Assembly (NCBI RefSeq): GCF_045037415.1
Contig: NZ_CP173440.1
Origin: Escherichia coli
GTDB lineage: Bacteria; Pseudomonadota; Gammaproteobacteria; Enterobacterales; Enterobacteriaceae
DNA: 64,000 bases
Reading direction: 5' to 3' (one strand)
Every line of letters begins with the position of its first letter. Within the stretch, counting starts at the first letter, position 1. The notes under the pieces were generated by a model, which saw nothing but the letters and a program-made list of their open reading frames with translations, was not told where the DNA came from and did no database searches. A program made the translations under genes and the position numbers. Positions 10,080 through 10,658 of this stretch are shown here, piece after piece.

Positions 10080-10658
10080 TCAAACCACTCCACCATAAAC
10101 ACTCACTGTTTATGAGCGATGTTACGGATCCTGAGGTAAGAAGCAAGTCTAATGAGACTGAGCAAGACAGCAGGGAAGGAATTTTTAACTATGAATCCAC
10201 TTTTATGATCAGAAGGTTATGCATAAAAACATTCAAACACCATTATTGAATGATTTATTTAATCACTAGTTATCTGAATAAATGTTATCACTATCTTAAC
10301 ATTACATACATAAATTAATTTACATCTGAAAATGATAATGAAATTAATAACAAACAACATTGTGTAATTTCCTTCTTATAATTTTCCACTGTTTATGAGA
10401 TGTGTCCCCCTCTTTAATTCAAAATTAGCCGCCTAAAGAAATTTAAGGGATTGACGAAGCGACTTTAAATGCAAGAATAGATATGCACGTTGTTCTTAGT
10501 AATGAAAGATACATAGGAAAGAGCTGTGTTTTCGTTCTTAAAGGTCAACATAGTGCGTACAAAATATGTTTTATTACAATCAAAATGCGGGATTTCATTG
10601 ACTAAACATTTATATGTGGAAAAATAGATTCATCCCGTATCACTCAAAAAGGTAACAT

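What the first reader, a model, noticed from the sequence alone, without database searches (positions are those of the whole stretch)
10104..10399. 13-bp direct repeat CACTGTTTATGAG in the endonuclease promoter region
The same 13-mer occurs at 10104-10116 (about 25 bp upstream of the endonuclease start codon) and at 10387-10399 in the AT-rich upstream region. Two exact 13-mers within 300 bp are unlikely by chance and may mark regulatory sites that delay endonuclease expression, or a small duplication.
Basis: seen in the sequence. Interest (0 to 1): 0.3.

Follow-up and report, generated by a model that had tools for sequence, protein, structure and literature searches.

The report
Shared regulatory motif upstream of endonuclease
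The repeated 13-mer is real, and both copies belong to short, strongly conserved control sequences of a Klebsiella resistance plasmid: one sits at the start of an EcoRII-like restriction gene, the other at a neighbouring promoter that points away from it. This is probably ordinary gene regulation by a factor that has not been identified.

Summary
CACTGTTTATGAG occurs exactly at 10104-10116 and 10387-10399. As a bare repeat it is weak evidence: 35% of composition-matched random windows contain such a pair.

Comparison of six diverged alleles of this Klebsiella IncFIB/IncHI1B plasmid family (100-72% identity) shows both copies are conserved.
- The distal copy lies in a 16-nt invariant block directly after an invariant TATAAT that points away from the endonuclease gene. 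The surrounding DNA is only 34% invariant.
- The proximal copy is the right arm of an invariant perfect palindrome, CATAAACA-N5-TGTTTATG (10094-10114). [quoted passage not shown]
- Only the core CTGTTTATG is constant. In the commonest allele the proximal copy reads CGCTGTTTATGCA.

The same palindrome recurs in other intergenic regions of the plasmid (8 further matches against 1.5 expected). It is absent from other EcoRII-family loci.

Best reading (about 0.5): both copies are operator sites for one unidentified plasmid-family regulator. The proximal site controls the endonuclease gene; the distal site controls the divergent neighbour operon. RNA-level rivals remain open. A delay of endonuclease expression is not supported. 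Interest is modest.

The parts
10104..10116 (+). Proximal copy of the 13-mer CACTGTTTATGAG
   Evidence: Exact match. The core CTGTTTATG is invariant in six alleles. The edges vary: CGCTGTTTATGCA in L002...GAA in L009.
10094..10114 (.). Perfect palindrome CATAAACA-CTCAC-TGTTTATG, proposed operator; forms a hairpin in the endonuclease mRNA
   Evidence: 0 mismatches to its own dyad. Both arms are invariant and the 5-nt spacer is variable across alleles. The RNA fold is -22.1 kcal/mol, z -2.24, and pairs part of the ribosome-binding site.
10387..10399 (+). Distal copy of the 13-mer
   Evidence: Exact match.
10387..10402 (+). 16-nt invariant block CACTGTTTATGAGATG
   Evidence: Longest invariant run in the diverged part of alignment A2. 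Background invariance there is 34%, and P(run >= 16) is about 5e-6 to 1e-5.
10377..10382 (+). Invariant consensus -10 hexamer TATAAT of a rightward promoter; the predicted start near 10389 falls inside the distal 13-mer
   Evidence: Invariant in six alleles. A promoter-like match of 8-9 out of 12 is found in every allele, with a variable -35.
10119..10146 (-). Candidate endonuclease promoter: -35 TTGCTT (10146-10141), 16-nt spacer containing a GATC (10127-10130), -10 TAACAT (10124-10119); predicted start near 10112
   Evidence: Lies in a conserved block (13-nt invariant run GATGTTACGGATC, CAAG invariant). Scores 8/12 as TTGATT-16-TAACAT in L002 and L007 and 7/12 in the window. Inferred, not mapped.
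10088..10094 (-). Ribosome-binding site GGTGGAG of the endonuclease gene, 8 nt before the ATG at 10079
   Evidence: Read from the sequence. Partly paired in the predicted hairpin.
8877..10079 (-). EcoRII-family restriction endonuclease gene (400 aa)
   Evidence: Pfam EcoRII-N 9e-50 and EcoRII-C 7e-69. Full-length match to EcoRII structure 1NA6, E 2.7e-155.
7372..8787 (+). Convergent C5 cytosine methyltransferase gene, the partner of the endonuclease
   Evidence: Pfam DNA_methylase 1e-77 and DNA_meth_N 4.5e-24; annotation.
10659..10907 (+). 82-aa gene of unknown function, followed by a DUF3846 gene (10985-11248); the likely target of the distal promoter. Two further conserved promoter-like sites lie at 10451-10478 and 10598-10625.
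   Evidence: Homologues exist only in this plasmid family. The AlphaFold model has pLDDT 55 and is not usable.
19149..19169 (.). Second palindrome CATAAACA-GTTAA-TGTTTATA, about 110 bp upstream of an orphan N6/N4 DNA methyltransferase gene (19278-20522)
   Evidence: 1 mismatch. Perfect in allele L008, and the right arm ATGTTTAT is kept in all four alleles compared. Pfam N6_N4_Mtase.
15512..15532 (.). Palindrome-like site CAAAAACT-GCGAA-TGTTTTTG between yfaE and a HigB-like toxin gene; a half-site CATAAACA lies at 15449-15456
   Evidence: Reads CATAAATG-N5-TGTTTATG in L008 and L009. Both sites are positionally conserved.
12783..12795 (-). Half-site CCTTGTTTATGAG, 78 nt upstream of the gene at 12441-12707
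   Evidence: TGTTTATGAGCATTTAA is kept in four of six alleles.
32604..32617 (+). CCACTGTTTATGCG: 12 of 13 identical to the 13-mer, and with the C before it 12 consecutive nt shared with the distal copy; intergenic
   Evidence: A 25-nt stretch around it is identical in an 84%-identical allele.

Best explanation
The two 13-mers are two instances of a cis-regulatory motif specific to this Klebsiella IncFIB/IncHI1B (MOBH, MPF_F) plasmid family. Its full form is a 21-bp dyad, CATAAACA-N5-TGTTTATG. The most likely mechanism is sequence-specific binding by a dimeric DNA-binding protein that has not been identified and is probably encoded by the plasmid. At the endonuclease gene the perfect dyad (10094-10114) covers about +1 to +20 of the only conserved promoter candidate (TTGCTT-16-TAACAT) and abuts the ribosome-binding site, so a bound protein would block transcription of the EcoRII-like gene. 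The distal copy is a strong right half-site (its left arm matches the dyad at only 4 of 8 positions). It overlaps the predicted start of an invariant TATAAT promoter that reads rightward into the 82-aa/DUF3846 operon. The same factor would thus control two divergent promoters 283 bp apart, and similar sites upstream of an orphan DNA methyltransferase gene, a HigB-like toxin/yfaE pair and others. Shown: exact sequences, conservation, recurrence, restriction to this plasmid family. Inferred: promoter positions, protein binding, direction of the effect.
For: Footprinting across six alleles (100, 86.7, 83.7, 82.4, 76.3, 72.3% identity): both palindrome arms are invariant while the 5-nt spacer and the outer flanks vary, which is the pattern expected of a dyad operator. 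The distal 16-nt block and TATAAT are invariant where only 34% of columns are. With the pattern fixed by the endonuclease site, a whole 200-kb plasmid has 8 further matches with at most 3 mismatches against 1.46 expected (Poisson 1.4e-4), and the 8-mer occurs 24 times against 9.1 (in the window 13 against 3.1). Among sites chosen only by TGTTTATG, similarity of the upstream 8-mer to CATAAACA peaks at spacing 5 (3.9 matches; 1.4-2.7 at the 15 other spacings, and 1.7-2.5 for the downstream-side control). 15 of 18 sites in the 16-93 kb segment lie outside annotated genes. The sites at 12785, 15449/15512 and 19149 hold their positions in diverged alleles. At the methyltransferase site the right arm ATGTTTAT is kept while the left arm decays without compensating changes, which favours sequence recognition over hairpin formation. 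The motif is absent upstream of EcoRII homologues of 57-61% identity and upstream of methyltransferase homologues in IncC and IncHI2 plasmids, so it tracks the plasmid backbone.
Against: No regulator was found. Pfam and NCBIfam find no DNA-binding domain above their thresholds in the neighbouring small proteins; the only hint is a sub-threshold winged-HTH match (E 0.003) in the L009 homologue of an upstream gene. The 82-aa neighbour could not be modelled. Site positions relative to likely promoters are heterogeneous, from overlapping the start to about -100. The distal site has only a weak left arm (4 of 8), and its invariance extends beyond the motif (AGATG), so it carries an extra constraint. 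The endonuclease promoter is weak by consensus (7-8 of 12) and the tool's own scan did not call it. In an unbiased scan of all 8-mers, TGTTTATG (about 4-fold) is not among the top 25. Non-palindromic sites point toward the downstream gene 9 of 11 times (P 0.03), which a symmetric operator does not predict. No binding data exist.
Confidence: 0.5

Rival explanations
1. RNA-level control. In the endonuclease mRNA the palindrome folds into a hairpin that occludes part of the ribosome-binding site and keeps translation low. Because the two promoters diverge, the direct DNA repeat makes the 5' end of the rightward RNA (CACUGUUUAUGAG...) complementary to the left arm of that hairpin (CUCAUAAACAGUG). 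The two RNAs could therefore pair, opening the hairpin or triggering cleavage. Precedents: the complementary direct repeats at the 5' ends of RNAI and RNAII in the pAD1 par/Fst system (reviewed in PMC3874152), and DsrA-type anti-antisense activation of rpoS (own knowledge).
For: The predicted hairpin is -22.1 kcal/mol against -15.7 +/- 2.9 for shuffles (z -2.24) and pairs GUGG of the GGUGGAG site. The 8-bp stem is retained in all six alleles. The predicted intermolecular duplex is -22 to -23 kcal/mol in five of six alleles. The distal block sits exactly where a 5'-terminal seed would be, just after an invariant -10, and it is invariant beyond the shared motif. Non-palindromic sites are oriented toward genes 9 of 11 times.
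Against: The stem never varies, so there is no covariation support. In the commonest allele class (L002, about 300 plasmids) the proximal copy changed at 3 positions while the distal stayed fixed; complementarity falls to 9 nt, no duplex at the repeat is predicted (the best duplex, -16.7 kcal/mol, lies elsewhere), and the ribosome-binding site is no longer sequestered in the minimum-energy fold. If the endonuclease transcript starts near 10112, most of the 13-nt target and one stem base are not transcribed. At the methyltransferase site the left arm decays without compensation. The other sites would carry the same-sense motif rather than its complement. No Rfam match. The rightward RNA shows no structure above shuffles (z -0.18).
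Confidence: 0.2
2. Two unrelated conserved elements that happen to share a short AT-rich core. The distal block is simply the core promoter and start region of the 82-aa/DUF3846 operon. The proximal palindrome is a gene-specific 5' stem-loop, for example for mRNA stability or as a weak attenuator. The 13-nt identity in this allele is partly coincidental.
For: A 13-mer pair of this kind arises by chance in 35% of matched random windows. Identity drops to 10 of 13 in the commonest allele. A -10-like hexamer lies 7 nt before TGTTTATG at many sites, so the 'left arm' could be promoter sequence. The tool flags a terminator-like stem at 10118-10100.
Against: This does not explain why the same 8-mer, and the same dyad at the same spacing, recur at conserved positions upstream of unrelated genes, nor the 9- to 11-nt identity retained in every allele.
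Confidence: 0.2
3. Relic of a small duplication, or a chance repeat without function.
For: The window-wide chance rate is high. The region is AT-rich.
Against: The flanks are not homologous beyond 13+4 nt. Both copies are far more conserved than their surroundings (P about 1e-5 for the distal block). The proximal copy is part of an invariant perfect palindrome.
Confidence: 0.05

Closest known systems
C-protein (controller) regulated type II restriction-modification systems (PvuII, Esp1396I, Kpn2I)
   Same: A short palindromic operator at the endonuclease promoter, used to set endonuclease expression. Kpn2I shows that a site downstream of the start can work as a roadblock (PMC6237814, abstract).
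   Different: No small HTH controller gene lies next to or upstream of the endonuclease gene. There is a single dyad rather than paired C-boxes. The sequence does not resemble the C-boxes I can recall (own knowledge, not tested). The same dyad occurs at unrelated plasmid genes. The two genes are convergent.
Methyltransferase-mediated control (SsoII/Ecl18kI N-terminal HTH; EcoRII methyltransferase autoregulation, Som and Friedman 1994, cited in PMC3874152)
   Same: The system is EcoRII-family, and its C5 methyltransferase has an N-terminal extra domain (PF18284). An operator-like palindrome lies in the endonuclease control region.
   Different: In SsoII/Ecl18kI the operator lies between divergent endonuclease and methyltransferase genes (PMC2760811); here the genes converge. 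EcoRII autoregulation acts at the methyltransferase promoter. No CCWGG site lies in the 10080-10658 region. The motif is absent from other EcoRII-family loci and recurs at a dozen unrelated sites.
Global operator networks of conjugative plasmids (KorA/KorB of IncP-1; ArdK/StbA/KorA of IncW) - own knowledge
   Same: One short palindrome is repeated in many intergenic regions of the backbone, at variable distances from promoters, tying accessory and maintenance genes into one circuit.
   Different: A different plasmid family (MOBH, MPF_F) and a different sequence. The regulator is unknown. No copies lie near the parAB genes.
pAD1 par (Fst) RNAI/RNAII direct repeats; EcoRI and Eco29kI antisense RNAs
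   Same: Direct DNA repeats transcribed from opposite strands give complementary 5' RNA segments that control a toxic gene. Antisense RNAs are documented in restriction-modification systems (PMC3874152, PMC3141266).
   Different: Here the transcripts would diverge rather than converge or overlap. No transcript is demonstrated. Complementarity is not maintained in the commonest allele.

Membership tests
EcoRII-family type IIE restriction endonuclease (the gene the finding refers to) | EcoRII N-terminal effector domain plus C-terminal catalytic domain, with full-length similarity to EcoRII | tested here: met
   Pfam PF09217 9e-50 and PF09019 7e-69. 1NA6 match E 2.7e-155 over residues 1-399.
   Present only in the same plasmid lineage (K. 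grimontii, 91% aa). Absent in Trabulsiella, Edwardsiella, K. spallanzanii and Rouxiella (57-61% aa) and in more distant loci, where the endonuclease gene directly follows the methyltransferase gene.
C-protein controlled restriction-modification system | A small HTH controller gene adjacent to, usually upstream of and co-transcribed with, the endonuclease gene | tested here: not met
   No HTH family hit for the 82-aa, 109-aa or 144-aa neighbours in Pfam or NCBIfam. The AlphaFold model of the 82-aa protein has pLDDT 55 and is uninformative.
C-protein controlled restriction-modification system | Paired C-box operators upstream of the C gene | tested here: not met
   A single dyad lies at the 5' end of the endonuclease gene. 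The distal site is 283 bp away and is only a half-site.
SsoII/Ecl18kI-type methyltransferase-regulated system | Divergent endonuclease and methyltransferase genes with the operator in the shared intergenic region | tested here: not met
   The genes are convergent: methyltransferase 7372-8787 (+), endonuclease 8877-10079 (-).
SsoII/Ecl18kI-type methyltransferase-regulated system | [quoted passage not shown] | tested here: inconclusive
   The methyltransferase has an N-terminal PF18284 domain. Whether it binds this palindrome cannot be tested here. Recurrence of the motif at unrelated genes argues against it.
Plasmid global-regulon operator (KorB-like logic) | The same palindrome is repeated in several intergenic regions of one plasmid, above chance and conserved in relatives | tested here: met
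   8 further matches with at most 3 mismatches against 1.46 expected. The dyad signal peaks at spacing 5. Positions are conserved in diverged alleles.
Plasmid global-regulon operator (KorB-like logic) | An identified cognate DNA-binding protein | tested here: not met
   No candidate could be identified; the only hit is a sub-threshold winged-HTH match (E 0.003, 17.9 bits against a cut-off of 27.1) in one homologue. Binding itself cannot be tested with these tools.
Complementary-repeat RNA control (pAD1 par-like) | Repeats lie at the 5' ends of oppositely transcribed RNAs and can pair | tested here: inconclusive
   The sequence allows a 13-bp duplex (-23 kcal/mol), and the predicted starts put both copies near the 5' ends. 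The transcripts are unverified, and pairing is weakened in the L002 allele class.
LexA (SOS) box | CTGT-N8-ACAG | tested here: not met
   No match with at most 2 mismatches at either copy.
Known RNA family | Rfam covariance-model match | tested here: not met
   No hit at E <= 1 in 9800-11000.

The most novel reading that the evidence does not exclude
A previously undescribed regulon of the pNDM-MAR-like Klebsiella IncFIB/IncHI1B plasmids. One unidentified factor would recognise the 21-bp dyad CATAAACA-N5-TGTTTATG. It would couple expression of an EcoRII-like endonuclease gene to that of an orphan N6/N4 DNA methyltransferase gene, a HigB-like toxin operon, large Ig-like surface protein genes and several unknown small genes in the plasmid's accessory region. 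This would be a type II restriction gene wired into a plasmid-wide circuit rather than into a dedicated C-protein, methyltransferase or antisense control. A variant of this reading is that the divergent 5' ends carrying the repeat pair as RNAs.
Probability: 0.4. Interest if true: 0.45.

Novelty: new variant of a known kind. Interest (0 to 1): 0.3.

Why it matters
These plasmids are a major vehicle of NDM and OXA-48 carbapenemases and of hybrid virulence-resistance traits in Klebsiella. The region was found in more than 500 sequenced plasmids, and almost none of their accessory genes or regulators are characterised. A defined operator sequence gives a direct handle for finding the regulator, for example by DNA-affinity pull-down or by reporter fusions combined with a deletion library. 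It would also show how a potentially lethal restriction gene is kept in check on a conjugative plasmid without any of the three known control modes. For restriction-modification biology the gain is incremental: a possible fourth wiring. The repeat itself is ordinary promoter and operator sequence.

Tried and rejected
- **Chance alone.** Window-wide simulations show that such 13-mer pairs are common. The case therefore had to rest on conservation, and conservation rejects chance.
- **Duplication.** There is no flank homology.
- **EcoRII-family feature.** Rejected: 49 loci were fetched and the motif occurs only in the same plasmid lineage.
- **Link to the orphan methyltransferase family** (autoregulation through its Mrr_N-like N-terminus). 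Homologues in IncC, IncHI2 and another IncHI1B/IncP plasmid lack the motif upstream.
- **Small proteins starting at the ATG inside each copy.** The proximal ORF stays open for 25-49 codons, but its C-terminus is not conserved and is frame-shifted between alleles. The distal one is 'MR*' in four of six alleles. Both rejected.
- **Known binding sites.** LexA box: no match. IHF, DnaA, PhoP, TyrR, GntR, KdgR, Zur and parS consensus sequences were compared from memory only and none fits in orientation or spacing. CCWGG methylation control: no site in the region.
- **Known RNA.** No Rfam hit.
- **The 82-aa divergent neighbour as a controller protein.** No family hit, homologues only in this plasmid family, and an unusable AlphaFold model with pLDDT 55.
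- **Other neighbouring small proteins as regulators.** No Pfam or NCBIfam DNA-binding hits, apart from a weak winged-HTH match (E 0.003) in one homologue of the upstream 'DNA-binding protein'.
- **A new promoter class** (-10 hexamer, 7 nt, TGTTTATG). -35 elements and spacing are not consistent between sites, so this is left as a minor possibility.
- **DNA looping with helical phasing.** The spacing is 278-284 bp (26.5-27.05 turns) and is not strictly in phase.
- **Literature.** No paper describing regulators or this motif in pNDM-MAR-type plasmids was found.

Full report
**Observation**

The 13-mer CACTGTTTATGAG occurs exactly twice within 300 bp, at 10104-10116 and 10387-10399 on the + strand. 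The large ORF on the minus strand (8877-10079) is a full-length EcoRII homologue. It carries the Pfam EcoRII-N and EcoRII-C domains and matches the 1NA6 structure over its whole length, E 2.7e-155. It converges on a C5 cytosine methyltransferase gene at 7372-8787. The proximal copy starts 25 bp upstream of the endonuclease ATG. The DNA between the copies falls to 18-24% GC. The description is therefore correct.

In simulations that keep local composition, 35% of 64-kb windows contain at least one 13-mer direct repeat within 300 bp. Only when the test is restricted to this one intergenic region does P reach about 0.007.

**Context**

The window is part of a large conjugative Klebsiella plasmid of the IncFIB/IncHI1B, MOBH/MPF_F type (pNDM-MAR-like). 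The region is found in about 550 PLSDB plasmids and 14 complete E. coli genomes, always on plasmids. These fall into allelic classes of about 100, 98.6, 86.7, 83.7, 82.5, 76 and 72% identity across the intergenic region, which allows phylogenetic footprinting.

**Footprinting**

- *Overall pattern.* In an alignment of six classes, the stretch 10150-10376 is poorly conserved (10-50% invariant columns).
- *Distal copy.* It lies in a 16-nt run, CACTGTTTATGAGATG (10387-10402), that is identical in all six. In the diverged part, where 34% of columns are invariant, such a run has P of about 1e-5. Four variable bases upstream of the run lies an invariant consensus -10 hexamer, TATAAT (10377-10382), on the + strand. 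It points away from the endonuclease gene, toward an 82-aa gene (10659) and a DUF3846 gene. Every allele scores 8-9 of 12 as a sigma-70 promoter here, with a variable -35. Two further conserved promoter-like sites follow at 10451 and 10598.
- *Proximal copy.* It is the right arm of a perfect palindrome, CATAAACA-CTCAC-TGTTTATG (10094-10114). Both arms are invariant. The spacer varies (CTCAC, TTCGC, TTCAC), and so do the bases just outside the arms. The 13-mer as such is therefore not conserved: in the commonest class (L002 type, about 300 plasmids) it reads CGCTGTTTATGCA. The constant shared core is CTGTTTATG.
- *Position of the palindrome.* It abuts the ribosome-binding site GGTGGAG (10094-10088).
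- *Promoter candidate.* Next to the palindrome is a conserved block containing the only positionally conserved minus-strand promoter candidate: TTGCTT (10146-10141), 16 nt, TAACAT (10124-10119). This scores 7/12 in the window and 8/12 in two other alleles. Its predicted start near 10112 puts the palindrome at about +1 to +20. The promoter is inferred and was not called by the tool's stricter scan.

**Is it an EcoRII feature?**

No. Among 49 loci encoding relatives of the endonuclease, only the K. grimontii contig (91% aa identity, the same plasmid lineage) has the motif. Enterobacterial homologues of 57-61% identity have unrelated upstream regions. In distant homologues the endonuclease gene directly follows its methyltransferase gene.

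**Recurrence on the plasmid**

- *Counts.* The 8-mer TGTTTATG/CATAAACA occurs 13 times in the window against 3.1 +/- 1.6 expected under local-composition simulations. In a complete 200-kb plasmid it occurs 24 times against 9.1 +/- 3.0. Fifteen of those copies lie in one 48-kb segment (39-87 kb) rich in small unknown genes.
- *Palindrome matches.* With the pattern fixed by the endonuclease site, there are eight further matches to the 21-bp palindrome with at most 3 mismatches, against 1.46 expected (Poisson 1.4e-4).
- *Strong sites.*
  - about 110 bp upstream of an orphan N6/N4 DNA methyltransferase gene (19149-19169; perfect in allele L008);
  - between yfaE and a HigB-like toxin gene (15512-15532, with a half-site at 15449);
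  - upstream of an Ig-like protein gene (outside the window);
  - between a DEAD-box helicase gene and a small gene (outside the window).
- *Dyad test.* Among sites selected only by the right half, similarity of the upstream 8-mer to CATAAACA peaks sharply at a spacing of 5 nt: 3.9 matches, against 1.4-2.7 at the 15 other spacings and 1.7-2.5 for the downstream-side control.
- *Location.* Most sites lie outside annotated genes: 12 of 13 in the window and 15 of 18 in the 16-93 kb segment. The PLSDB gene tables are incomplete, so these fractions may be somewhat overestimated.
- *Positional conservation.* The sites at 12785, 15449/15512 and 19149 keep their positions in diverged alleles. The site at 32604, which shares 12 consecutive bases (CCACTGTTTATG) with the distal copy and its preceding C, is kept in an 84%-identical allele.
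- *Caveat.* TGTTTATG is about 4-fold enriched and is not among the top 25 8-mers in an unbiased scan. The regulon claim therefore rests on three things together: the a-priori pattern test, the dyad signal and the footprints.

**Mechanism**

The pattern at the endonuclease site is what a dimeric DNA-binding protein's operator looks like: invariant arms, free spacer and flanks, and the same dyad at unrelated genes. At the methyltransferase site the right arm ATGTTTAT is kept in all alleles while the left arm decays without compensating changes. That argues for sequence recognition rather than hairpin formation.

I therefore favour, at about 0.5, a shared operator. At the endonuclease gene it overlaps the start of transcription. 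At the distal site it overlaps the start of the divergent TATAAT promoter.

The factor remains unknown:
- no neighbouring small protein has a recognisable DNA-binding domain above family thresholds; the one hint is a sub-threshold winged-HTH match (E 0.003) in the L009 homologue of an upstream gene;
- the 82-aa neighbour has homologues only in this plasmid family;
- its AlphaFold model is unusable, with pLDDT 55;
- the orphan methyltransferase's N-terminal Mrr_N-like domain is an unlikely candidate, because its homologues in IncC and IncHI2 plasmids lack the motif upstream.

**RNA-level rival**

Folded as RNA, the endonuclease 5' region forms the 8-bp hairpin extended by pairs that include GUGG of the ribosome-binding site. 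Its energy is -22.1 kcal/mol against -15.7 +/- 2.9 for shuffles.

Because the two promoters diverge, the direct repeat makes the 5' end of the rightward RNA complementary to the left arm of that hairpin. The predicted duplex is -22 to -23 kcal/mol in five alleles. This is reminiscent of the complementary direct repeats of RNAI and RNAII in pAD1 par (PMC3874152).

Against it:
- the stem shows no covariation, because it never varies;
- the commonest allele loses most of the complementarity and the sequestration of the ribosome-binding site;
- the predicted endonuclease transcript start would remove most of the target;
- Rfam finds nothing.

I give this 0.2. A further 0.2 goes to the view that the two elements are functionally unrelated (a core promoter and a gene-specific stem-loop) and merely share an AT-rich core. 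I give 0.05 to chance or a duplication relic.

**On 'delay of endonuclease expression'**

Nothing here supports it. A plasmid-encoded repressor would be absent on entry into a new cell, giving early rather than delayed expression. There are no CCWGG sites in the control region. In one E. coli plasmid the methyltransferase gene is truncated while the endonuclease gene is intact and its upstream region is replaced by IS elements. This may mean that host Dcm methylation of CCWGG (own knowledge) relaxes the need for tight timing. IS insertions between the two copies are also tolerated.

**Verdict**

What is there is a plasmid-family-specific dyad motif, with one perfect copy at the start of the endonuclease gene and a strong half-site at the neighbouring divergent promoter. 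It is a new variant of a familiar kind of element, with an unidentified regulator, and is of modest interest.

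Noticed in passing
window 60460-61400: CRISPR-like array with a period of about 61 bp and a repeat resembling GTATTCCCCCCGTGTGCGGGGGTTATCGG. In a related plasmid, Cas6 and helicase genes are annotated at the far end of the shared gene block (NZ_CP032223.1, 31-35 kb). This fits the plasmid-borne type IV CRISPR-Cas described for these plasmids (own knowledge).
   Followed up: partly
window 61771-61996: Group II intron domains D1-D4 (Rfam RF02005, 186.6 bits), immediately after the CRISPR-like array. Related plasmids annotate ltrA reverse transcriptase/maturase genes.
   Followed up: no
window 31126-31870 and 51476-51593: Iteron-like repeats AAAAGTTACTTTT near RepB-family replication genes. The 8-mer AAGTTACT occurs 28 times against 1.7 expected.
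   Followed up: no
whole window: The Chi sequence GCTGGTGG (with its complement) occurs 20 times against 1.7 expected, which is strong enrichment for a plasmid region.
   Followed up: no
window 4051-4818: A 768-bp insertion (the size of IS1) relative to NZ_MW245019.1, just downstream of a 143-aa ORF whose longer homologues in other alleles are annotated 'DNA-binding protein'. In addition, window 31069-54634 is inverted relative to that record.
   Followed up: partly
window 10127-10130: An invariant GATC (Dam site, inside GGATCC) lies in the spacer of the candidate endonuclease promoter, within a 13-nt invariant run. It could make the promoter sensitive to hemimethylation after conjugative entry.
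   Followed up: no
L004 (E. coli pMB18183_1), locus 3600-5600: The C5 methyltransferase gene is truncated while the EcoRII-like endonuclease gene is intact and its upstream control region is replaced by IS elements. L003 has an IS5-family insertion between the two 13-mer copies.
   Followed up: partly
window 19278-20522: The orphan N6/N4 DNA methyltransferase has a weak Mrr_N-like N-terminal domain. Homologues of about 52% identity occur across IncC, IncHI2 and Pseudomonas megaplasmids (2260 PLSDB records).
   Followed up: partly
window 15512-15532 compared with L006, L008 and L009: The yfaE/higB palindrome shows one symmetric double change between alleles: CATAAAT...TGTTTATG against CAAAAAC...TGTTTTTG. 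L006 is an intermediate with only one arm changed. This is the only hint of compensatory change at any of the dyads.
   Followed up: partly
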